From a virus (lineage: Duplodnaviria; Heunggongvirae; Uroviricota; Caudoviricetes), in the IMG/VR virus record IMGVR_UViG_3300017605_000626, positions 1 through 64,000 of that record: DNA of 64,000 nt; one strand, 5' to 3'. The first letter of the stretch is position 1; each line of letters begins with the position of its first letter. The notes beneath the pieces were generated by a model that saw only the letters and a program-made list of their open reading frames with translations, had not been told where the DNA came from and made no database searches. Shown here piece after piece: positions 1-15,982 of this stretch. A program made the translations under genes and the position numbers.

Positions 1-402
1 AGTCTTGATTAATTCGCTTAACAGACCAAGCGATTTTTGGCGAGTGTCAACCTTTTCGTTAGCCGCACAAACAGCTAAAGCAAAAATCCAAGGATCTTGC
101 TTAAATGCTCTATCCTTTCTACGAACATCAGCAATTAATTCCAAAACTTTATCAGGATTTTCCTTTAAACATGCTTCAATATTTTGTGCATTTTCTTTGG
201 TTAATTTTGCTTCTGTAGTATAGTAAGATCCGCCTTCAGTGCCAAGGATTAGAAATCTTTCTAACCGCTTAAAATTATCTAATGCAAAAACAAAACAACC
301 TTCATTATTCTGCACTTGTGGCGCTGTAGACACTACAGCAGGAACAGGTTCTCTGACTGAAGTATTTTTGTAGTTGAATGACGTATATGCTTTGTGACTC
401 AT
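1..402 (-). CDS. Ro60/TROVE-domain protein (Rsr-like), N-terminal ~134 aa; the C-terminus runs off the window start
   Basis: Not in the ORF track because it has no stop inside the window. The minus frame from ATG (402..400, SD GGAGG 9 nt upstream) is open to position 1. Translation is MSHKAYTSFNYKNTSV..FKRLERFLILGTEGGSYYTTEAKLTKENAQNIEACL..DPWIFALAVCAANEK. This matches the Ro60 TROVE N-terminal signature (human Ro60 RLHRFLCFGSEGGTYY...LFALAIC). Confidence 0.6.
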   Translation of the reverse strand, partial: MSHKAYTSFNYKNTSVREPVPAVVSTAPQVQNNEGCFVFALDNFKRLERFLILGTEGGSYYTTEAKLTKENAQNIEACLKENPDKVLELIADVRRKDRAFKQDPWIFALAVCAANEKVDTRQKSLGLLSELIKT

Positions 403-831: not shown

Positions 832-1593
832 TTAGTTTTTTACATACTGACTGAAATCAAGCACATCATTAAAGATTACCTGTGCTTCAGTCTTTGCGTT
901 ACTATTGATCACGTTCTGAATATTGTCTGGTCCACCGAACATACTAGTCATTCTCTCTACTTGTGGAGTTAGATTTTCCGCAAGCCTAGCCAGCTTGTAC
1001 ACTTGGCGAAGCAGCTTATCAGAGTCACACCAGAAGTTGGATAATACTCGGTATTCTACACCATAAGGCTTTGTACGAAAGCATCCAGCCTTACCATACA
1101 TCTTCTTTCTTTCAGTATCATGATCATTAAGCACAGACCACATACCAAGAGTTAAATCACAAGCTCTGATTGTTTCTGGTGTACCGCCTTCAATGTGCAA
1201 ATGACCTCCAAAGGTTCTTAGTGTAGTCCTTGCATCAGGCGGCTCATTCATATCCAACGTCCAAGCATTAAAGTCCGGCATACAGCCCATTTCCATAGCG
1301 CCTTTTACACTCTTTAAATCTTCTTTAATATAATGAGCACTAGGAACAGCCAGCAATCGACCTCTCCAATACTTCTTTCTTACTTCCTTAATCAATTGTA
1401 GAACATTGTCTACAAACTGATCTTCAGTTTCGGCAGGTGGAGGGGTAATTTCAATAGCCACACCATCCAATTCAACTCCGCCATGAGTCAATTGTTCAGC
1501 ATTTCCTTTAGTTCCAGTGATAGGTAAAATTCCAGCAGGCTTAAAAACTCCATCCATCTGCAACGCATATTCGATATCGTATCCGAGTTTCAC
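832..1593 (-). CDS. hypothetical protein (253 aa)
   Basis: Long ORF. Its ATGA start/stop overlaps the upstream gene at 1590-1593, typical of phage operon packing. Confidence 0.5.
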   Translation of the reverse strand: MKLGYDIEYALQMDGVFKPAGILPITGTKGNAEQLTHGGVELDGVAIEITPPPAETEDQFVDNVLQLIKEVRKKYWRGRLLAVPSAHYIKEDLKSVKGAMEMGCMPDFNAWTLDMNEPPDARTTLRTFGGHLHIEGGTPETIRACDLTLGMWSVLNDHDTERKKMYGKAGCFRTKPYGVEYRVLSNFWCDSDKLLRQVYKLARLAENLTPQVERMTSMFGGPDNIQNVINSNAKTEAQVIFNDVLDFSQYVKN

Positions 1594-2615
1594 CAGTTTC
1601 TCGCTCCTAATTGAGAATGAATATTATATAACCAATCTGTATCCATTGTGGCATAACCAGTGTATTTAGGTACATTGGCTAATTCAACTACTGTTTTTAC
1701 ATACTCATTAAATGAGCATTTATTACCATATTTAAATTGCAATAAGTATAAAACTGGAAATTCTAGTGGATGATACTTTGCTTTTTCCATCCTTTCTTTT
1801 ATTGTGTGCCCATAACTATAATAGTCACTAGGACTTAGATTTAACTGGCAATCTCCAATTAAAGATCCATAACCATAATAATATCCATGTTGTTCTTTTA
1901 GAGATTTTTGTTGTGGTTTTGGTCTCCACGTCCCTTCTTGTAATTCTCTAAAAGTCTTTATAGTTATGTTGTCATCATATATCGGGCCATGACTTATTGG
2001 GTAACGTGTTGTAGTAAGTCCAATAATATCTTTATTTCCACCTGGAGATCCTACCATTACACACGCCACAGCAGCTAAGGTTGGATGAATACCTTTAGCT
2101 GTTAATGCGTGGAATAATTCCATACAATGATTTTCTGTTCTTCCTTCTTGAATAATAGACATACATCTTAAAAATGTTAATACTACATCTGCTGGATAGA
2201 CTTCAATATCAATTTTATAGGTAAATTTCTTTCTGTTAAATAAAGGTTTAATCTGTAATAAGCTCATTAATGCATCGACAAAAGGTTTAAAAGCCTCTAC
2301 ATTTTTCTCTGCTACAGGATAATGTGCATATCCACCATAAATTTTGAGATATTTAGCTTTAGTAAATTCTTTTAAATATGATGATCTAAGCATAGCAAAA
2401 CAACCTTGATTTGGATAATTCTTTACTAATTTTTTGTCTGCGTCTAATAATTTGAATGATTCCATATAGAGAGTTGGTGGAGGCGGTGCGATTCGAACGC
2501 ACATTTCCTTTTGTATAGAAAGATAATCATTAACAAGCGGCTCATGGTATTGGGCATAGCATGAACAAAAGTAGTTAACGGATTTTTTTGTCCTACCGTT
2601 AGACGACGCCCCCAA
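1590..2615 (-). CDS. hypothetical protein (up to 341 aa; the true start may be internal)
   Basis: Long ORF in a co-directional array. No recognisable motif by eye. Confidence 0.5.
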   Translation of the reverse strand: MGASSNGRTKKSVNYFCSCYAQYHEPLVNDYLSIQKEMCVRIAPPPPTLYMESFKLLDADKKLVKNYPNQGCFAMLRSSYLKEFTKAKYLKIYGGYAHYPVAEKNVEAFKPFVDALMSLLQIKPLFNRKKFTYKIDIEVYPADVVLTFLRCMSIIQEGRTENHCMELFHALTAKGIHPTLAAVACVMVGSPGGNKDIIGLTTTRYPISHGPIYDDNITIKTFRELQEGTWRPKPQQKSLKEQHGYYYGYGSLIGDCQLNLSPSDYYSYGHTIKERMEKAKYHPLEFPVLYLLQFKYGNKCSFNEYVKTVVELANVPKYTGYATMDTDWLYNIHSQLGARNW

Positions 2616-2618
2616 AGT

Positions 2619-2981
2619 TTAAGTTACAAGTATGTGGTAAAAAGAAATCAAAAACGCCATATGAAGGAACTGATCAAAGCCTATTACTATAAAGAACTTA
2701 CGAATTTCTTTAGCTTCCCACAAATAATGAGTTACTTTACTACTGAAATAGTCCACAATGAAGTGGATACAACCATTTAAAGAACAATACAACCAAACAT
2801 TTTTAAATTGAGCAAGACTTAGAATAACAACTAATGTACTGAAATATACAAATACATGCCAGCTTAAAGCCCATAAACTTTTCCATTTGTTCATTGACAT
2901 ATATTCAGACTGCAATACAAAGTCCGCAATAAAATGCACTAATAAAACAAATGTCAAAAGAATAGAAAAATTTTCTTCCAT
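2619..2981 (-). CDS. integral membrane protein (approximately 4 TM)
   Basis: Hydrophobic segments LLTFVLLVHFIADFVL and VFVYFSTLVVILSLA. Confidence 0.45.
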   Translation of the reverse strand: MEENFSILLTFVLLVHFIADFVLQSEYMSMNKWKSLWALSWHVFVYFSTLVVILSLAQFKNVWLYCSLNGCIHFIVDYFSSKVTHYLWEAKEIRKFFIVIGFDQFLHMAFLISFYHILVT

Positions 2982-2991
2982 TTCATTATAC

Positions 2992-3231
2992 CTACCTAGA
3001 TACCCACCTAGCAGAAATTATACCTTCACCTAATCCAACCTTTTTAGCAGGAAAATAAGCCAATCTATTACCCATTGTATCTGTATCTACATAGCCTCTA
3101 ATTAGAGTGCCAGCCCGACAATCTTCACTTCTACAGCGAAGTATCAAAGCTTCATGCCCGCCTTTTTCTTCTGTATTATAAATATCAAATGATTCATTTC
3201 CACAATTACTACACATCATTTTTATAGACAT
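2992..3231 (-). CDS. zinc-ribbon protein (79 aa)
   Basis: CSNCGN...C..EDC cysteine pairs. Confidence 0.4.
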   Translation of the reverse strand: MSIKMMCSNCGNESFDIYNTEEKGGHEALILRCRSEDCRAGTLIRGYVDTDTMGNRLAYFPAKKVGLGEGIISARWVSR

Positions 3232-3334
3232 TAAATTACCTAATTAAAGTAGATATACATATACCAATATAAACAAGCAAAGCATAAGCCAATATTATTG
3301 CGGTTTTATTTATTATTTTTTCAATCATAAAATT

Positions 3335-3413
3335 TGGTAGCCCCTATAGGATTTGAACCTATGATCTATCGCTTAAAAGGCGAGTGCATTGAACCAGACT
3401 TTGCTAAGGGGCT
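3335..3413 (-). tRNA. tRNA-Lys (anticodon TTT), CCA encoded
   Basis: Minus-strand cloverleaf: acceptor AGCCCCT/AGGGGCT, T-arm ATAGG-TTCAAAT-CCTAT, anticodon loop CTTTTAA (U33, TTT, A37), discriminator A + CCA. Confidence 0.75.
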
Positions 3414-3694
3414 ATAAATGTATATAAAACAAAGATATTTGAAATCACAGTTAAAATCATTACTGTGTTTAATCCAATTAGTGTTTTGTTATACTTAACC
3501 TGAAAAACAATTAAGCATCCAACAGCACAAAATAATTTTGCAAAAAACAGAGTCTCACCAACTCCGAAATAATTCATTGATTGACGAAGCAATGGATTAC
3601 CTTCTATGTCAATACCTACTCCACTAACTAACAAGTAGGTTAAAGCCCCATCTAGAAACTGCAATATAGCACTGAGATATGGATTTGTCAACAT
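3404..3694 (-). CDS. small membrane protein (96 aa)
   Basis: Hydrophobic ORF filling the gap between two tRNAs. Its 3' end overlaps tRNA-Lys by about 10 nt, so the real stop or start may differ. Confidence 0.35.
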   Translation of the reverse strand: MLTNPYLSAILQFLDGALTYLLVSGVGIDIEGNPLLRQSMNYFGVGETLFFAKLFCAVGCLIVFQVKYNKTLIGLNTVMILTVISNIFVLYTFIAP

Positions 3695-3708
3695 AGGTTT
3701 TAAAGAGT

Positions 3709-3785
3709 TGGAGGCCCCGGTCCGACTTGAACGGACGACCCCAAAATTAGAAGTTTTGTGCTCTATCCAACTGAGCTACGGGGCC
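3709..3785 (-). tRNA. tRNA-Arg (anticodon TCT), CCA encoded
   Basis: Acceptor GGCCCCG/CGGGGCC, D-arm GCTC..GAGC, anticodon stem CAAAA/TTTTG with loop CTTCTAA, T-arm GTCCG-TTCAAGT-CGGAC, discriminator T + CCA. Confidence 0.8.
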
Positions 3786-3790
3786 ATAAA

Positions 3791-5140
3791 TTAAGAGGAC
3801 ATTACATTAGACTGCATTTGATCTAACAACACTCTATGAAAATTTGCTTTATCTACTTTCTCCATAGTGTAAGAACTACAAAGATACCCCTCATTCCTAG
3901 TGTGTCCTATAGATTGATATCTTACTGGAATTCCTATATGCTGGCCGATCAAAGCGCATAGTTCATAACTAAATACAGTTACTATTTTACCATTAACTTT
4001 TACAGGAAAATTTCTATCACTAACCTGGTTTAAACAACTAACTGCAATATTGAATTTAAATCCTTCATCATCATTAATCGTTCTTACAAAACGTTTCACA
4101 GCATCTAAATGAATTAGGCGGCCTAAATTTAAATATTCTTTTATGTCAGTTAAGATAGCTTCTTTCATTAAATCTAAATCCAAAGCACCAAAACGTAGTG
4201 TGCCTTGAAATTCATTTGGTTGATTAGTTAAATCAAGGTAAGACATTTTAGGATCTTCAGTTGGAAATGGACCAGCACCATGACGTGTCATATAAGGTCT
4301 AGTCACATATGTGACAGTAACATTCATTTCCTTGTCTGATTTAATTCTTTGTAAATGAGCTTTCAAGTTTAAAATAGTTTCTTTTACATTGGTTAAACCA
4401 GTTTTACTGTGTGTTACATAGGGGAAAAATCTATGATCTTGGTCTAAAAGTAATCCCTGAGCACCTTCAAATACCAAGTTTTTATAGGTATTTAAATATG
4501 CTTCATCAGTTATTGTAGAACTGCTGTTCATTTGAACAGCCGTATTTACCCAGTTATACATGAGCGCCACTGATTCCCATTTTTCTTTAAACCAATTAGA
4601 TGGGTAATCTACTTTCGCTTCTTGAAGCCTATGACTTACATAGAAATCACGTATATTAGCTAATTTACCTTTAACTACTTGAAAGTTGTTAAGATCACTA
4701 GCATGTATAGTAGTTCTTGGGAATTTTTTGTGCCTTTGAACAGTTTCGTTAATTCCTACACCACAAGTAGTGCCTTTTTTTGACAACTCTGCATTGAGAA
4801 GCATATCATAAGGCGTAGTTACTATCGCATCTCTATGAATCTTTAGAATTATCTTTTTATCATATTTTTTTTCTAGTTCTTTAGCTTCTTTTTTCCAAAG
4901 AAACGGATTAAGAATAAATTCTTTACCGAGAAATGTATCTGCACCACAAAATGTACCGCTGCCAAAATGGTGGAACACATGCTTATTTCCAGCAGGAGTA
5001 GTTACAGTGTGACCAGCTTGTGCCCCGCCATTAAAGCGAATAACACAGACATTGTTCCTGCATTCATTAACGAAATATTCAGTCCAATACCCTTTACCGG
5101 AATCTCCAAAATTAGCATCTATTACAACGTAAATATTCAT
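3791..5140 (-). CDS. adenylosuccinate synthetase homolog (PurA/PurZ family), 449 aa
   Basis: N-terminal P-loop GDSGKGY (PurA GDEGKGK) and GGAQAGHT (PurA GGHNAGHT). Collinear similarity to E. coli PurA through the C-terminal FGALD region. Confidence 0.8.
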   Translation of the reverse strand: MNIYVVIDANFGDSGKGYWTEYFVNECRNNVCVIRFNGGAQAGHTVTTPAGNKHVFHHFGSGTFCGADTFLGKEFILNPFLWKKEAKELEKKYDKKIILKIHRDAIVTTPYDMLLNAELSKKGTTCGVGINETVQRHKKFPRTTIHASDLNNFQVVKGKLANIRDFYVSHRLQEAKVDYPSNWFKEKWESVALMYNWVNTAVQMNSSSTITDEAYLNTYKNLVFEGAQGLLLDQDHRFFPYVTHSKTGLTNVKETILNLKAHLQRIKSDKEMNVTVTYVTRPYMTRHGAGPFPTEDPKMSYLDLTNQPNEFQGTLRFGALDLDLMKEAILTDIKEYLNLGRLIHLDAVKRFVRTINDDEGFKFNIAVSCLNQVSDRNFPVKVNGKIVTVFSYELCALIGQHIGIPVRYQSIGHTRNEGYLCSSYTMEKVDKANFHRVLLDQMQSNVMSS

Positions 5141-5367
5141 TTGCGTCTCAATGTAATTAAAGGAAAATGAAACAGTTCAATTCCTTTTTTAGTAATCATA
5201 GAACAGGCTTTAATAATCAAAATATCTTTCAATGTATCAGGACGTGATAACCAATAAGACTGTATATTCAATTCAATACAAAGATTTTCTACATCTGCCT
5301 GTAAATCAGTAGCTACTACGAATTTATGTAAATCTTCGCCTTTAGGTTGCCAATTAACTTGTATCAT
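5137..5367 (-). CDS. hypothetical protein (76 aa)
   Basis: Track ORF with 4-nt overlaps to both neighbours. Confidence 0.4.
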   Translation of the reverse strand: MIQVNWQPKGEDLHKFVVATDLQADVENLCIELNIQSYWLSRPDTLKDILIIKACSMITKKGIELFHFPLITLRRK

Positions 5368-6140
5368 AGTTTTGTATAGCTAGATATCGCTTTTACCAAT
5401 TTAACAATGTCATGAGCATAGAAACCAGCAGAATTTAGTCCATTAAATTCTACTACATATGATTCACCATTATATAATGCAACGTCCATAACACAGCATT
5501 CATGAGGCAACCACATATCTGCTAAGGCTTGAGCCTCTTTTAACACAGCTTCATCAGTCTCTTCATATTGATATGGTTGATCGGATAGTCTGTAAGAACT
5601 GCCAGTTATAATTTTACCACCAACAATGAAATATCTCCATTCCATATCAATCTTTTTTGGAATAGATAAAGATATTTTAGTATCGCTGTTCATTTCACAT
5701 TCTACTGATTCAAGCCGCTCAACCCAAGAAATAAGATCTTTTCCAGTAATAACGTGTCCTGCAAAACTCTTTGTGTCGTCTAAAGGGCGAATAAACCAAT
5801 TAAATCTCAATCCTGCAAAATGCAAAGCATCATGTAAGGACACTATTAAAGCATCTTTGTTAAGCATAGCAGGATGCTTATAATTATACATATTTACAAA
5901 AAAATTGTCATTATGAAAGACGTATTTCCAATTAAGAGACTTTGCTAACTTGACTAAAGAAGTGGAGCCATGAGGAATAAAATCAGTGCCTTCAAGGTTA
6001 AGAGAAAGTTCATTCTCTTTAATCCAATTAAGAACACGATGCTGTTCTATCATAATAAAGAATTCTTCAGCTTCTTTTAAAGCAGCAAGCATTCTACCTG
6101 TTGTTCTATCTTTGCAGTTTTGAATTACCCATGTAGACAT
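5364..6140 (-). CDS. ATP-grasp-like domain protein (258 aa)
   Basis: C-terminal VALYNGESYVVEFNGLNSAGFY resembles the ATP-grasp (E-x-N) nucleotide-binding segment. Weak call. Confidence 0.4.
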   Translation of the reverse strand: MSTWVIQNCKDRTTGRMLAALKEAEEFFIMIEQHRVLNWIKENELSLNLEGTDFIPHGSTSLVKLAKSLNWKYVFHNDNFFVNMYNYKHPAMLNKDALIVSLHDALHFAGLRFNWFIRPLDDTKSFAGHVITGKDLISWVERLESVECEMNSDTKISLSIPKKIDMEWRYFIVGGKIITGSSYRLSDQPYQYEETDEAVLKEAQALADMWLPHECCVMDVALYNGESYVVEFNGLNSAGFYAHDIVKLVKAISSYTKL

Positions 6141-6222
6141 TGTTATACCTTAATTATTGAGCAAGTTTATGTTAATAGGGTTAATTTTCAATGTTAACCT
6201 ATTAACGTCGGCTCAATTCCCT

Positions 6223-6414
6223 TTACCAACTATGCCAAGAACAATAAACAATTTCCTTATGACAATTAGGGCAGTGATCAAAAGAAGTGTTAGTTAAAAT
6301 ATTACAATTATCACAAGTAATATAACATGTTCCATCCAAAGAATCACTGTCATAAGTTACTGTAGTTTGGTCTGGTTTTAAATCCTCTAATTTGTTTATA
6401 ATTTTTATTGTCAT
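6223..6414 (-). CDS. zinc-ribbon protein (63 aa)
   Basis: CDNCN...CPNCH. Confidence 0.4.
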   Translation of the reverse strand: MTIKIINKLEDLKPDQTTVTYDSDSLDGTCYITCDNCNILTNTSFDHCPNCHKEIVYCSWHSW

Positions 6415-7298
6415 CTGTCTAGGTAAACTCTTACAAAGTTTTTGCTGTTATCAATGACTAAAGAGCTTTTATCCTCATGAACAACCAGCCCCACTTCTTT
6501 ATAGCCAGCACTTCTTTCACAAGCAGCAATAGTATTAACAATACCTTGAGCTAGATAGCTCTCATCTCTCACCGAGATGGCGGCTTCACCTAACAATCTT
6601 TTCCAAGTCTTTTCTACTGGCTGGCTATTAACAGGTTTGATAATCAAATGAAAAACATTCCAATATTCTTGAGTAACAGCTAGAAGTTTTTCAGTATCAA
6701 TATCTTCTTGACATCCCACGCCCATAAAGCTTCTAATATGTTCGGCTTCAATGATAGGCAGAACACACTCATCACCAATGGTAAATAGATAACCTTTCTT
6801 GTTTCTCTTTCTCCAGGCGTCAGTCTTAACCTTGAAAGTAGCAAACCACCAAGGTAAAGAATAAGATTCTCCTCCATTACTACCACCATTTGCTTCCAAA
6901 TAAATAGAAGCAACCTGCTGCGTTATAGCGTCAACAGAAGCCTCAAACTGAGTTACCTGCAACGGCGCTCTATCAGAAAAAGCATCCCCAACTCCCATAC
7001 ACATAATGTGGGGATCTCTTACAGGCTTGGTATCATAAATTTCTTTCATGATAACGCCAAGATCATGCTTGATAATCTGCTCAGCAAGCCGACCCATAGA
7101 ACCTGTTTCATCTACAGCTAAGATAATAGGTGTAGATTCTGGATTAGCGTCTGAGTCTACTGATTCACGAAAATCAATCTTACTAGGATCTAAGGCAGGA
7201 TCAATTTCCCTTTTAGTAAAAATCTCTTTTCTAGATTTATTGCTAACTGTTTTAGTATAGCTTGTCCAATCATTTGCATCCCAACGTGCATTTCCCAT
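6411..7298 (-). CDS. von Willebrand factor A (vWA)-like domain protein
   Basis: ILAVDETGSMG, a MIDAS-like DxTGS motif. Confidence 0.5.
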   Translation of the reverse strand: MGNARWDANDWTSYTKTVSNKSRKEIFTKREIDPALDPSKIDFRESVDSDANPESTPIILAVDETGSMGRLAEQIIKHDLGVIMKEIYDTKPVRDPHIMCMGVGDAFSDRAPLQVTQFEASVDAITQQVASIYLEANGGSNGGESYSLPWWFATFKVKTDAWRKRNKKGYLFTIGDECVLPIIEAEHIRSFMGVGCQEDIDTEKLLAVTQEYWNVFHLIIKPVNSQPVEKTWKRLLGEAAISVRDESYLAQGIVNTIAACERSAGYKEVGLVVHEDKSSLVIDNSKNFVRVYLDR

Positions 7299-7341
7299 TT
7301 TATTTATTCCTTTATTATTTAATTTTTAATTAAAAAAAAGT

Positions 7342-7470
7342 GCCATTCTATTGGATTCGAACCAATGACCCACAGTTCCTGAGTTAACCTTTCTTCTTCG
7401 GCTACGACTACATAGCAAGTAGTTGAAAAAAGATATTTTGACTGTTGCTCTGCCTCTGAGCTAAGAACGG
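7342..7470 (-). ncRNA. tRNA-like gene with all canonical arms but an approximately 65-nt anticodon loop (approximately 58-nt insertion)
   Basis: Minus-strand acceptor CCGTTCT/AGAATGG (7 bp, 1 GU), D-arm GCTC-AGAGGCA-GAGC, perfect 5-bp anticodon stem ACAGT/ACTGT separated by 65 nt. The T-arm ATTGG-TTCGAAT-CCAAT is perfect. Discriminator C, followed by an 8-nt U-tract. Confidence 0.45.
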
Positions 7471-7915
7471 CATAAAATTGTTAGGCTAATGCTGGTGTTC
7501 CTTCATCAATACCATTTTGCAATACTTCTGTTGCTTTGTCAAGATCTTCTTGGGTTAACGGAGCTTCCTCTTCTTTCTTTTCAGGAACTTTTCCACCGTT
7601 ATCTTCCCAAATGTCTGTTGCTGGTCCGCCCATTTTAGTCCTTTATTGTAATCATGAAACTGCAATTAAAAACACTCCGACTGCAATAGTAGTCGATATT
7701 ACCCAAATAAATTTGTTTGATATTCCTGCTCCATAAAAATCTTTGTCTAAATGATTAATAAGGTTAAAACTAACCACACAAAATACAAAAGATAGCACTG
7801 AAACACCAAGAGCGAATGCCATTTTATCTCCAAAAAAAACCACTGAGCAAAGAAAGATTTAGCAGTTTTTATCTTAAAAGGATAATGCTTAATCAACGGC
7901 TCAGTGGTTTATAGG

Positions 7916-15343: not shown

Positions 15344-15982
15344 TTACTCGTTGTTTGCCGAGTACTTAGATTTATATTCTTCATCTTTTTCAATTGTTTT
15401 CTTAAAAAACATATTTGCAGCGGTATGGTAAATGATAATTCCTTCTGCGGGTTTAAAACCAGGAGAAGCTTTGCTTCCATTGACACTTAAATCTTCTAAG
15501 GTTCCCCAAATAGCGTTTTCATTAAAAATACCTCTATATAGAACAGGTACTACATGGCAACATTTTGGAGCATTTTCAGGCGTCCATCTTGTAGTATTAA
15601 ACAAAGAAAATCTCTTTTCACCTAATCCGTATCCTCTTTGAATACCTCTGCCCCACCATTCACCAAAGTGAGTTCCAGGACCAAGTTTAGCAAGCTCTTC
15701 AGATTCTGCACGAACCCAATTAGCAAAACCTGCATTGTCATTTTTAGGAGTAATCCATTTATTTCTGGAAGCAGCTATAATTGCCAACCCATCCTTCACG
15801 CAAGTAGCCGTCGTTTCAACAAAATGTTCAGATATTAAAGGGTCAATAGAAAAGGCATTTACATAGTTAATTGTGATAGACGCATTAGTTCCGTCTATTT
15901 TTTCAGATATGACAATTTCTCTACTTAATCTTGGTATTTTAGGAAACGGCTGAAAATCCATATTATCCTCATTGTAATCCAA
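15344..15982 (-). CDS. RNA ligase (Rnl2-like nucleotidyltransferase domain)
   Basis: Motif I EKIDGTN (T4 Rnl2 EKIHGTN), the lysine-adenylation KxDG motif. Confidence 0.55.
   Translation of the reverse strand: MDYNEDNMDFQPFPKIPRLSREIVISEKIDGTNASITINYVNAFSIDPLISEHFVETTATCVKDGLAIIAASRNKWITPKNDNAGFANWVRAESEELAKLGPGTHFGEWWGRGIQRGYGLGEKRFSLFNTTRWTPENAPKCCHVVPVLYRGIFNENAIWGTLEDLSVNGSKASPGFKPAEGIIIYHTAANMFFKKTIEKDEEYKSKYSANNE

What the first reader, a model, noticed from the sequence alone, without database searches (positions are those of the whole stretch)
7342..7470. tRNA-like gene whose anticodon loop is expanded to about 65 nt (intron-like insertion or Y-RNA-like effector RNA)
A perfect acceptor stem (7 bp), D-arm, 5-bp anticodon stem and a textbook T-arm (TTCGAAT) are all present. 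However, the two halves of the anticodon stem are separated by 65 nt instead of 7. The insertion is far too short for a bacterial group I intron. Possibilities are a novel small intron, an engineered or decoy tRNA, or a Y-RNA-like ncRNA with a tRNA-like module (bacterial YrlA). The last is notable because a Ro60/TROVE gene sits at 1..402. A U-tract follows the 3' end.
Basis: seen in the sequence. Interest (0 to 1): 0.6.

Follow-up and report, generated by a model that had tools for sequence, protein, structure and literature searches.

The report
Phage Y RNA shaped like tRNA
A phage that carries a Ro60 gene also encodes an RNA with a complete tRNA body whose anticodon loop is replaced by the Ro60-binding hairpin of bacterial Y RNAs, which makes it a rearranged, not circularly permuted, relative of the known YrlA family.

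Summary
On the minus strand (7471..7342) lie a 7-bp acceptor stem plus a G-1:C73 pair, a D arm, a 5-bp anticodon stem, a T arm, a U8 tract, and 64 nt where the anticodon loop should be. Standard tRNA and Rfam scans miss it.

The insert folds as stem, internal loop (with GCCGAAG, the published Ro60 motif GNCGAAN0-1G), stem, tetraloop.

- A covariance model built from two similar RNAs of an unrelated viral contig matches it full length (62.7 bits, E=2.5e-13; ordinary tRNAs here reach 30 bits or less). It also uncovers a second copy at 2613..2475 with an encoded CCA.
- A model of the finding rearranged into YrlA order matches, full length, RNAs 100-700 nt upstream of Ro60 genes in 13 independent viral contigs (up to 63 bits).
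- Eight of nine such units rescanned are also significant but sub-threshold Rfam YrlA matches.

Best reading: a Y RNA partner of the phage Ro60, homologous to YrlA but with an open acceptor end and a closed Ro60-binding stem. Ro60 binding is inferred, not shown.

The intron reading (ARAGORN: tRNA-Leu CAG, 57-nt intron) is weak. The supposed anticodon lies partly in a conserved Y motif, the body is class I, and CUG is a rare codon. This is a new variant of a known kind.

The parts
7342..7471 (-). Whole tRNA-shaped Y-like RNA (WIN1), from G-1 (7471) to C73 (7342)
   Evidence: Sequence. Full-length match to model R2, 62.7 bits, E=2.5e-13. ARAGORN -i call.
7464..7470 (-). Acceptor stem 5' strand, CCGUUCU. 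G7471 may add a G-1:C73 pair.
   Evidence: Across the family the acceptor stem covaries at all 7 pairs.
7447..7461 (-). D arm, GCUC-AGAGGCA-GAGC
7441..7445 (-). Anticodon-stem 5' strand, ACAGU (pairs with 7372-7376)
   Evidence: The same ACAGA/ACUGU stem occurs in the permuted relative L096.
7377..7440 (-). 64-nt Y module that replaces the anticodon loop: junction loop, 10-bp lower stem, asymmetric internal loop, 6-bp upper stem, UAGU tetraloop
   Evidence: Folds. Same architecture in 18 tRNA-order relatives, with compensatory changes in every modelled pair of both stems (9 lower, 5 upper), and in re-permuted Ro60-adjacent units.
7425..7434 (-). Lower Y stem, pyrimidine strand AUCUUUUUUC (pairs with 7387-7396, GAAGAAAGGU)
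7401..7416 (-). Upper Y stem GCUAUG/CGUAGC, closed by UAGU (7407-7410). In YrlA this position holds the free 5' and 3' ends.
   Evidence: Compared with the open-ended stems of Ro60-adjacent units.
7396..7402 (-). GCCGAAG, an exact match to the GNCGAAN0-1G Ro60-recognition motif. CGAA (7397-7400) forms the 3' side of the internal loop.
   Evidence: Sequence. Motif definition from PMC4201824. A CGAA-containing bulge in phage phiLo Yrl RNAs is described in PMC12135203.
7381..7389 (-). GGUUAACUC, the family-wide conserved motif (GGUUA[ACU]C / GUUACUUC). It corresponds to 'GGgaaCUAc' in the Rfam YrlA consensus.
   Evidence: Alignment A1, the YrlA consensus shown.
7372..7376 (-). Anticodon-stem 3' strand, ACUGU
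7350..7371 (-). Variable loop GGGUC and T arm AUUGG-UUCGAAU-CCAAU
7343..7349 (-). Acceptor stem 3' strand, AGAAUGG, followed by C73-A-C. No CCA is encoded.
7332..7339 (-). U8 tract just after the 3' end; likely transcription stop (inferred)
   Evidence: Sequence. The simple terminator scan did not call it, because the preceding structure is a cloverleaf and not a plain hairpin.
1..402 (-). 5' part of the Ro60/TROVE gene (first 134 codons; runs off the window). Same strand as the RNA, 6.9 kb downstream of it.
   Evidence: Translation. Pfam TROVE, E=3.3e-8.
2475..2613 (-). Second tRNA-order Y-like RNA (WIN2). Acceptor GGGGGCG/CGCCUCC, encoded ACCA, motif GAUUAUC. It lies 2.07 kb upstream of the Ro60 start.
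   Evidence: Found with R1. R2 gives 72.0 bits, E=1.4e-15, full length. Sequence.

Best explanation
The element is a non-coding Y RNA of the phage and the likely RNA partner of the phage Ro60 protein. It is evolutionarily related to bacterial and phage YrlA RNAs but has the opposite circular arrangement.

In YrlA the RNA ends lie in the Ro60-binding stem and the acceptor-like stem is capped by a loop. Here the RNA begins and ends in a normal tRNA acceptor stem. The Ro60-binding module is a closed hairpin that replaces the anticodon loop: a 10-bp lower stem, an internal loop carrying GCCGAAG, and a 6-bp upper stem.

Proposed mechanism; every step here is inferred:
1. The RNA is transcribed from the minus strand and ends at the U8 tract.
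2. Its ends are matured like a tRNA, by RNase P at the 5' end and by trimming and possibly CCA addition at the 3' end.
3. Ro60 binds the GCCGAAG-containing loop and helix.
4. The L-shaped tRNA body (D/T elbow and free acceptor end) recruits a tRNA-binding factor or nuclease. Ro60 is thereby tethered to that effector, as Y RNA tethers Ro60 to PNPase in Deinococcus.

What is shown here is the structure, the family membership, the homology to Ro60-adjacent RNAs and the genomic linkage.
For: 1. Structure. The tRNA body is complete and the insert folds into stem, asymmetric internal loop, stem and tetraloop.

2. Family.
- Model R2 was built only from two units of viral contig L133. It aligns the finding end to end at 62.7 bits (E=2.5e-13) and a second window copy at 72.0 bits.
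- The three ordinary tRNAs of the window score 30.1, 26.6 and 15.2 bits.
- R2 finds 18 further insert-bearing members, two of them the L133 seed units themselves.
- In their alignment the lower Y stem is 92.7% paired and the upper stem 89.2%. Every one of the 14 pairs shows compensatory changes. The covariation score is 0.572 against 0.105 or less for slid controls.

3. Permutation test.
- Model R3 was made from the finding re-cut into YrlA order. It gives full-length hits on units 100-700 nt upstream of, and on the same strand as, TROVE genes in 13 independent viral contigs.
- Scores: L096 63.2 bits (E=2.6e-12), L309 55.7, L210 55.6, L152 48.6, then L193, L287, L001, L284, L105, L257, L145, L240 and L021.

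4. Link to YrlA.
- Nine of those 13 contigs were rescanned with Rfam. In eight, the unit hit by R3 is also a significant but sub-gathering match to RF02553 YrlA. Scores are 32-51 bits and E runs from 1.4e-8 to 5e-3.
- In the ninth (L284) the YrlA match falls on the neighbouring unit.
- The 3' half of the insert plus the T arm is colinear with the YrlA consensus: GNCGAA, spacer, GG..AA-CU(A/C), stem, variable loop, T arm.

5. Motif. GCCGAAG is an exact GNCGAAN0-1G (PMC4201824).

6. Linkage.
- The Ro60 gene is on the same strand in the window.
- Among 237 loci fetched by RNA pattern alone, 15 of the 16 with TROVE carry such units (odds ratio 30, p=1.7e-6).
- tRNA-order units lie next to TROVE in L220 (about 30 nt between the unit's 3' end and the start codon), L179 (three units), L036 and L052.
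Against: - No direct match to Rfam YrlA at any threshold. The link to YrlA is transitive and passes through sub-threshold hits.
- The element is 6.9 kb from the Ro60 start, beyond the 4 kb within which nearly all published YrlA candidates were found. The second copy, at 2.07 kb, is inside that range.
- No close orthologue of this particular element was found in phage records, viral contigs or metagenomes. Covariation evidence therefore comes from the wider family and from an alignment fitted to the model.
- R2 also gives up to about 52 bits to some ordinary tRNAs of other loci, so part of the score is the tRNA body.
- The covariance-model E-values are rough because calibration was short.
- GNCGAAG in a 64-nt stretch has about a 3% chance of occurring at random (my estimate).
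- Ro60 binding, transcription and end processing are all untested.
- An intact acceptor end, with CCA encoded in the second copy, could point to a function in or near translation rather than Ro60 tethering.
Confidence: 0.68

Rival explanations
1. It is a genuine tRNA gene (ARAGORN: tRNA-Leu, anticodon CAG) interrupted by a 57-nt intron at position 32/33. The Y-like hairpin is cut out and the halves are joined, perhaps by the phage RNA ligase. The result is a working tRNA and possibly a free Y-like RNA.
For: - ARAGORN in intron mode calls it this way.
- Deleting the insert leaves a 7-nt loop CUCAGGA with U33 and a purine at position 37.
- In some family members the insert splits the anticodon stem, and deleting it restores perfect anticodon arms: Asn GUU in L133, L112 and L115, and Cys GCA in L036.
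- Acceptor stems covary like real tRNAs, and the sister copy in this window (WIN2) and several family members encode CCA.
- The phage encodes an RNA ligase (PF09414, 15344..15982).
Against: - The loop nucleotides CUC belong to the conserved Y motif GGUUAACUC. ARAGORN's 'anticodon' for the second copy (GAU) likewise comes from the motif GAUUAUC.
- The permuted homologue L096 has the same stem and motif but yields no U33 loop.
- The body is class I (5-nt variable loop), whereas the phage's own tRNA-Leu(UAA) has the long variable arm.
- CUG is only 6.4% of Leu codons, while the three real phage tRNAs read the commonest codons.
- At 57 nt the insert is far too short for a group I intron, and no Rfam intron or ribozyme hit was found.
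- The junctions lie in a 6-nt/10-nt internal loop, not in a bulge-helix-bulge.
- No splicing endonuclease is known in bacteria (stated in 10.1101/312249).
- Homologous modules occur in the permuted form, where no splicing could make a tRNA.
Confidence: 0.12
2. It is a tRNA mimic that acts without Ro60. It could be a decoy for host anticodon nucleases or other tRNA-targeting defences, or a processing or termination signal. On this view the resemblance to Y RNAs reflects shared ancestry only.
For: - The tRNA body and free acceptor end are intact.
- It lies 6.9 kb from Ro60.
- It sits among tRNA genes and RNA-repair-type genes.
- The I3 loop sequence varies within the family: CGAA, CGCUU, CGAC, UGAAU.
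Against: - There is a strong statistical and positional link between this RNA family and TROVE genes.
- The GNCGAAG motif is matched exactly.
- Both Y stems are conserved by covariation, which implies selection on that module.
- A decoy for anticodon nucleases would be expected to keep an anticodon loop.
Confidence: 0.15
3. It is a decayed tRNA pseudogene with a chance insertion and has no function.
For: It is missed by standard tRNA finders, and no close orthologue was found.
Against: - Full-length matches with E of 1e-12 to 1e-13 in two independent models.
- All tRNA tertiary-contact nucleotides are kept.
- A second copy with the same architecture but different stem sequences lies in the same genome.
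- The family shows covariation.
Confidence: 0.03

Closest known systems
YrlA RNAs (Rfam RF02553; Salmonella Typhimurium YrlA and relatives in >250 bacteria and 22 phages; PMC4201824, 10.1101/312249)
   Same: - A Ro60-binding stem with a GNCGAAN0-1G motif joined to a tRNA-like L-shaped domain with conserved D and T arms.
- Encoded on the same strand as Ro60.
- The order of elements along the descending strand is the same: motif, purine-rich strand, GG..A-CU., stem, variable loop, T arm.
- When the finding is re-cut into YrlA order, it matches Ro60-adjacent units, and most of those rescanned are weak YrlA hits.
   Different: - Circular arrangement. YrlA has its ends in the Ro60 stem, a closed acceptor-like stem and no free CCA end. 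The finding has an open 7-8 bp acceptor stem and a Ro60 stem closed by a tetraloop.
- The Rfam model does not match it.
- It lies 6.9 kb from Ro60.
[quoted passage not shown]
   Same: A YrlA-type RNA that ends up with an open 7-bp acceptor stem and a CCA tail, that is, tRNA-like ends plus a Ro60 module.
   Different: In M. smegmatis this state arises by cutting a permuted precursor, which leaves a two-piece RNA whose Ro60 stem also has free ends. Here the open acceptor is encoded directly and the RNA is a single chain.
Deinococcus radiodurans Yrn1 (PMC4201824)
   Same: A Y RNA with D-like and T-like elements in tRNA order (D before T).
   Different: In Yrn1 the Ro60-binding helix takes the place of the acceptor stem and a small anticodon-like arm remains. 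In the finding the acceptor is intact and the Ro60 module takes the place of the anticodon loop.
Thermus phage phiLo Yrl1 and Yrl2 (PMC12135203)
   Same: Phage-encoded RNAs near a phage Ro60 gene with a stem-bulge-stem shape and a CGAA motif in the bulge. They were shown to bind the phage Ro60.
   Different: In the passages read they are described as simple stem-bulge-stem RNAs encoded just upstream of the gene, and no tRNA body is reported. Homology to the finding was not tested.
Intron-containing tRNA genes (bacterial group I introns; archaeal/eukaryal bulge-helix-bulge introns, including the archaeal tRNA-Trp intron that carries a box C/D RNA, the last recalled from memory)
   Same: A tRNA gene interrupted in or near the anticodon loop by a structured insert that may itself be a functional RNA.
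   Different: - At 57-64 nt the insert is too short for group I.
- No bulge-helix-bulge is present.
- No splicing machinery for such inserts is known in bacteria or phages.
- The insert is homologous to a protein-binding module that also exists outside any tRNA-order context.

Membership tests
YrlA (Rfam RF02553 / Chen et al. 2014) | GNCGAAN0-1G motif in the Ro60-binding module | tested here: met
   GCCGAAG at 7402..7396, with CGAA in the internal loop. Motif definition. It is not near the 5' end, because of the different arrangement.
YrlA (Rfam RF02553 / Chen et al. 2014) | tRNA-like domain with conserved D and T arms and tertiary-contact nucleotides | tested here: met
   D loop with G18G19, T loop UUCGAAU, and U8, A14, G15:C48.
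YrlA (Rfam RF02553 / Chen et al. 2014) | Permuted topology: 5' and 3' ends pair in the Ro60-binding stem, the acceptor-like stem is closed by a loop, and there is no free CCA end | tested here: not met
   The acceptor stem is open and flanked by a U8 tract. The Ro60-type stem is closed by UAGU.
YrlA (Rfam RF02553 / Chen et al. 2014) | Score at or above the Rfam gathering threshold (69 bits) | tested here: not met
   No YrlA match even at E<=10. This is expected if the RNA is a circular permutation, which the model cannot align.
YrlA (Rfam RF02553 / Chen et al. 2014) | Encoded within about 4 kb of Ro60 on the same strand | tested here: inconclusive
   Same strand, but 6.9 kb upstream of the Ro60 start. 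The sister copy at 2613..2475 is 2.07 kb upstream.
YrlA (Rfam RF02553 / Chen et al. 2014) | Sequence and structure homology to YrlA-type RNAs once the permutation is allowed for | tested here: met
   Model R3 (permuted finding) gives full-length hits of 34-63 bits on Ro60-adjacent units in 13 contigs. Nine contigs were rescanned with Rfam. In eight of them the same unit is a YrlA match of 32-51 bits (E 1.4e-8 to 5e-3).
YrlA (Rfam RF02553 / Chen et al. 2014) | Bound by Ro60 in vivo or in vitro | not testable with these tools
   Requires immunoprecipitation or a gel shift.
tRNA-order Y-like RNAs of phages (family delimited here with model R2) | Open 7-bp acceptor, D arm, Y module (lower stem, asymmetric loop, upper stem-loop) between D arm and T arm, GGUUA[ACU]C-type motif, T arm | tested here: met
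   Full-length R2 alignment at 62.7 bits with all stems paired. The architecture is shared with 18 other members.
Canonical tRNA (Rfam RF00005, ARAGORN default) | Cloverleaf with a 7-nt anticodon loop; score above 29 bits | tested here: not met
   Not called by ARAGORN or by Rfam. Only a 13.4-bit local T-arm hit.
tRNA with a group I intron | Intron of about 200 nt or more with the P1-P9 catalytic core | tested here: not met
   The insert is 57-64 nt, and no Rfam intron or ribozyme family matches at E<=10.
tRNA with a bulge-helix-bulge intron | Splice sites in two 3-nt bulges separated by a 4-bp helix | tested here: not met
   In the predicted fold the junctions lie in a 6-nt/10-nt asymmetric internal loop. 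This was checked by inspection only.

The most novel reading that the evidence does not exclude
The tRNA-order Y RNAs may be bifunctional precursors or adaptors. Two versions remain open.

1. The Y module is excised by an as yet unknown phage or bacterial pathway that uses the phage RNA ligase. One gene would then yield both a working tRNA and a Ro60-binding RNA, which would be the first protein-dependent tRNA splicing in the bacterial world.

2. The intact RNA is CCA-tailed and aminoacylated, and it carries Ro60 to EF-Tu, the ribosome or a synthetase.

In either version these RNAs would be the unpermuted ancestors from which YrlA arose by tandem duplication.
Probability: 0.1. Interest if true: 0.85.

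Novelty: new variant of a known kind. Interest (0 to 1): 0.6.

Why it matters
Y RNAs tether Ro60 to effector proteins. For the widespread YrlA class, neither the effector that binds the tRNA-like domain nor the origin of the family is known.

[quoted passage not shown] This phage, and at least 16 other viral elements, carry the same Ro60-type module inside an otherwise normal tRNA with an open, sometimes CCA-ending, acceptor stem.

This matters in three ways.
- It gives a concrete unpermuted counterpart of YrlA, so the origin question can be tested. Permuted and unpermuted forms occur in related phages, and tandem copies exist in L179.
- It suggests that the effector recognises a real tRNA end or elbow.
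- It shows that tRNA finders and Rfam miss a recurrent class of phage RNAs, and that intron-mode tRNA callers will mislabel them as intron-bearing tRNAs.

Tried and rejected
- Similarity searches against INPHARED phage records, using the element and the first 12 kb of the window, found nothing.
- The 295-aa neighbour protein found no relative in viral contigs. It has more than 2,400 homologues in the protein database, but the contigs fetched for them lack the RNA at the syntenic place. One of them (L240) did supply a Ro60 locus with YrlA-like units.
- The window's own contig is not on record, so the rest of the Ro60 gene could not be read.
- The pattern GGTTAACT..T-loop mostly hit D arms of ordinary Met-type tRNAs.
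- The single metagenome scan gave four distant Y-like units and no close relative.
- The half-model R1 (Y strand plus T arm) ranked the finding first, but by only about 6 bits over ordinary tRNAs. It is not decisive, although it revealed the second copy.
- MAFFT plus RNAalifold on 18 tRNA-order members recovered only the acceptor, D and T stems, because the Y stems were out of register. I therefore seeded R2 from two well-aligned units and let Infernal align the rest.
- A script searching for structurally consistent MAFFT subsets timed out.
- A two-sequence permuted alignment of both window copies was misaligned, so R3 used the finding alone.
- The group I, bulge-helix-bulge and known-ribozyme readings were rejected.
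- Literature searches found no description of a non-permuted YrlA or of such phage tRNA inserts in the held library. Three sources could not be opened: two reviews by id and the supplements of Chen et al.

Full report
**Observation**

The feature lies on the minus strand, and the RNA reads from 7471 down to 7342. Its parts are as follows.
- A 7-bp acceptor stem, CCGUUCU/AGAAUGG, with one G.U pair. G7471 can add a G-1:C73 pair.
- U8 and A9.
- A D arm, GCUC-AGAGGCA-GAGC.
- A26.
- A 5-bp stem, ACAGU/ACUGU.
- A variable loop, GGGUC.
- A T arm, AUUGG-UUCGAAU-CCAAU.
- The tail A-C-U8.

The two halves of the anticodon stem are 64 nt apart. ARAGORN in default mode and Rfam at its gathering scores report only three ordinary tRNAs in the window: Lys UUU, Arg UCU and Leu UAA. 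A permissive Rfam scan of 7200-7600 gives only a 13.4-bit local T-arm match and no YrlA match. ARAGORN in intron mode calls tRNA-Leu(CAG) with a 57-nt intron at 32/33.

The Ro60 statement is right. Window 402..1 on the same strand encodes the first 134 residues of a TROVE protein (Pfam E=3.3e-8) that continues beyond the window. The window is phage DNA: it holds a large terminase, a family A DNA polymerase and an RNA ligase domain.

**Anatomy of the insert**

The whole RNA folds with acceptor and T arm in place. The insert forms one long hairpin (MFE -36.1 kcal/mol, z=-2.3). Folded alone, the hairpin has these parts.
- A 10-bp lower stem, AUCUUUUUUC/GAAGAAAGGU.
- An asymmetric internal loop, AACUACUU on the 5' side and CGAA on the 3' side.
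- A 6-bp upper stem, GCUAUG/CGUAGC.
- A UAGU tetraloop.

The string GCCGAAG spans the upper stem, the loop and the first base of the lower stem. It is an exact instance of GNCGAAN0-1G, the motif Chen et al. proposed for Ro60 recognition in YrlA RNAs (PMC4201824). A CGAA-bearing bulge is also the feature used to find the Ro60-binding Yrl RNAs of Thermus phage phiLo (PMC12135203).

**A family turns up**

Two pattern scans of viral contigs looked for a D arm followed 70-100 nt later by a T loop. They returned many hits. Some are adjacent tRNA pairs. A large group carries a purine-rich strand followed by GGUUA[UC]C or GUUACUUC shortly before the T arm.

A tblastn search of all fetched loci showed that 22 of them contain a TROVE gene. 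In those loci the motif-bearing units lie mostly 50-700 nt upstream of the gene on the same strand, usually two or three in a row.

Among the 237 loci of the first two scans, 15 of the 16 with TROVE carry such a unit by a crude rule, against 73 of 221 without TROVE (odds ratio 30, p=1.7e-6).

Most Ro60-adjacent units have the classical YrlA order: Y strand, T arm, closed acceptor-like hairpin, D arm, Y strand. Some are in tRNA order with an open, fully paired acceptor stem, namely L220 (two units), L179 (three), L036 and L052.

**Is the finding a member? Test 1**

I built model R2 from two tRNA-order units of contig L133 only, giving it the acceptor, D, lower-Y, upper-Y and T helices. I searched the whole window with filters off.
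- 72.0 bits (E=1.4e-15) at 2613..2478.
- 62.7 bits (E=2.5e-13) at 7470..7342, the finding.
- Both matches are full length, and in the finding every pair of both Y stems forms.
- The three ordinary tRNAs score 30.1, 26.6 and 15.2 bits.

On 60 loci R2 finds 18 insert-bearing members, two of them the L133 seed units themselves, plus some ordinary tRNAs at up to about 52 bits. In that alignment the lower Y stem is 92.7% paired and the upper stem 89.2%. All 14 pairs show compensatory changes. The covariation score is 0.572 against 0.105 or less when partners are slid. One caveat applies: the alignment was fitted to the model.

An earlier half-model, R1, ranked the finding first but with a small margin (33.6 against 27 bits). 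Its main value was to reveal the second copy.

**Is it a permuted YrlA? Test 2**

I re-cut the finding into YrlA order. The sequence starts at the 3' strand of the upper stem, runs through the T arm and the acceptor 3' strand, crosses an artificial tetraloop, and continues through the acceptor 5' strand and the D arm to the 5' strand of the upper stem. I built model R3 from this.

R3 gives full-length matches.
- L096 10408-10536: 63.2 bits, E=2.6e-12. The TROVE gene starts 197 nt downstream.
- L309 55.7, L210 55.6, L152 48.6, L193 45.8, L287 45.1, L001 42.7.
- Then L284, L105, L257, L145, L240 and L021.
- Every one lies just upstream of, and on the same strand as, that locus's TROVE gene.
- Dimeric tRNAs in the same loci reach only about 31 bits.

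Nine of these contigs were rescanned with Rfam. In eight of them the unit hit by R3 is also the best Rfam YrlA match, significant but below the gathering score of 69 bits. Examples are L287 (51.2 bits, E=1.4e-8), L309 43.5, L152 39.0, L001 38.6, L240 36.2, L210 35.7, L193 32.3 and L096 32.0. In L284 the YrlA match (46.3 bits) lies on the neighbouring unit.

When the Ro60-adjacent units are re-joined in tRNA order, they fold into the same architecture as the finding: a lower stem of 8-9 bp, an asymmetric loop and an upper stem.

The closest relative, L096 unit 1, shares the ACAGA/ACUGU stem, GGGUC and the motif. Its acceptor-like stem is closed by UUCG and its Y stem is open. The finding is therefore a circular permutation of Ro60-adjacent YrlA-type RNAs.

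**What it most likely does**

By homology and linkage it is a Y RNA partner of the phage Ro60. The inferred steps are these.
1. Transcription on the minus strand. A weak promoter-like site lies at 7542-7514, but such sites are no more common than in shuffles.
2. Termination at U8.
3. tRNA-type end maturation.
4. Ro60 binding at the GCCGAAG loop and helix.
5. Recruitment of a tRNA-binding effector through the L-shaped body.

None of these steps was tested.

**Rivals**

The intron reading is weak for this element.
- The loop nucleotides CUC are part of the conserved motif.
- ARAGORN's anticodon for the second copy also comes from the motif.
- The body is class I, unlike the phage's own tRNA-Leu.
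- CUG is 6.4% of Leu codons, whereas the three real tRNAs read UUA (35%), AAA (62%) and AGA (56%).
- No intron or ribozyme family matches, and no bulge-helix-bulge is present.

It cannot be excluded for the whole family. In L133, L112, L115 and L036, deleting the module restores canonical anticodon arms. Several members and the second window copy encode CCA. The phage also has an RNA ligase.

A Ro60-independent decoy role and a pseudogene reading are less likely, given the linkage and the covariation.

**Comparison and novelty**

The published descriptions I could read define YrlA as lacking a free CCA end, with a closed acceptor-like stem, 'resembling circularly permuted tRNAs'. They place Yrn1's Ro60 helix at the acceptor position (PMC4201824; 10.1101/312249).

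The finding is a third arrangement: the acceptor is intact and the Ro60 module stands at the anticodon loop. It fails two defining YrlA features, topology and Rfam score, so I do not file it as a YrlA. I file it as a new variant of the Y RNA kind.

I found no description of it in the searchable library. That library is incomplete, and two reviews could not be opened.

Noticed in passing
window 2475-2613 (minus strand): A second tRNA-order Y-like RNA. It has acceptor GGGGGCG/CGCCUCC, an encoded ACCA, motif GAUUAUC and loop CGCUU (the same as L133 unit 3990). It lies 2.07 kb upstream of the Ro60 start and scores 72.0 bits with R2. It is hidden under the TTG-extended 5' end of ORF 1590..2615, whose true start is probably the ATG near 2465.
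   Followed up: yes
L030, L033, L034, L042, L055, L081, L085, L095, L099, L120, L142, L147, L170, L212, L297: A different, shorter insert ('family B', 44-50 nt) occurs in many phage tRNA genes. It sits in the 5' strand of the anticodon stem after about nt 28-30. It begins UA(A/G)A and contains a 6-7 bp hairpin followed by ..(A/C)(C/U)GCAA. Deleting it restores perfect anticodon arms (Lys UUU, Asn GUU, Val UAC, Tyr GUA). No TROVE gene lies in those loci, and the three of them scanned with R2 gave no hit in this class. These could be a true mini-intron class or another protein-binding module.
   Followed up: partly
L005 3510-3621 and at least 25 near-identical loci (e.g. L006-L008, L013, L015, L017, L022): A normal-order tRNA whose anticodon stem is extended to about 13 bp. 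It is capped by a permuted tRNA-like unit (T arm, short hairpin, D arm), giving a tRNA-within-a-tRNA. It is very common in one set of metagenomes.
   Followed up: no
L179, reverse strand 6533-7215 (units at 6533, 6663, 7088): Three tRNA-order Y-like units lie in tandem upstream of a TROVE gene. This gene's protein is the closest among the fetched loci to the window's Ro60 fragment (39% identity). The acceptor 3' strand of unit 1 (CCACAAC) can also pair with the acceptor 5' strand of unit 2 (GUUGUAG). This shows how tandem copies could give rise to the permuted YrlA arrangement.
   Followed up: partly
window 7471 and 7342: G-1 can pair with C73, giving an 8-bp acceptor stem as in bacterial tRNA-His. 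No CCA is encoded here (C73-A-C-U8), whereas the three ordinary tRNAs and the second Y-like copy all encode CCA. The meaning is unknown.
   Followed up: no
window 15344-15982 (minus strand): A 212-aa protein with an RNA ligase domain (PF09414, E=1.1e-13). Together with Ro60 and the tRNA genes, it suggests an RNA repair or RNA quality-control gene set in this phage.
   Followed up: no
window 832-7298 (minus strand), and L238-L242: The 295-aa protein just downstream of the RNA has a DxSxS-like motif and no Pfam hit. In four of the five fetched contigs (L238, L239, L240, L242) it is followed directly or nearly so by an adenylosuccinate-synthetase-like gene. In L240 a Ro60 gene lies about 700 nt upstream of it. 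In the window it lies among ATP-grasp (R2K) and COOH-NH2 ligase genes.
   Followed up: partly
Ro60-adjacent units in L145, L021, L016, L041, L284, L105, L152, L240: Many permuted Ro60-adjacent units keep a complete anticodon-arm-like hairpin between the GGUUAC motif and the T arm. It has a 5-bp stem and a 7-nt loop with U33 and A37, for example CUUGUAA, CUGUUAA and CUUUUAA. This is the position published work calls the variable 'V' arm.
   Followed up: partly
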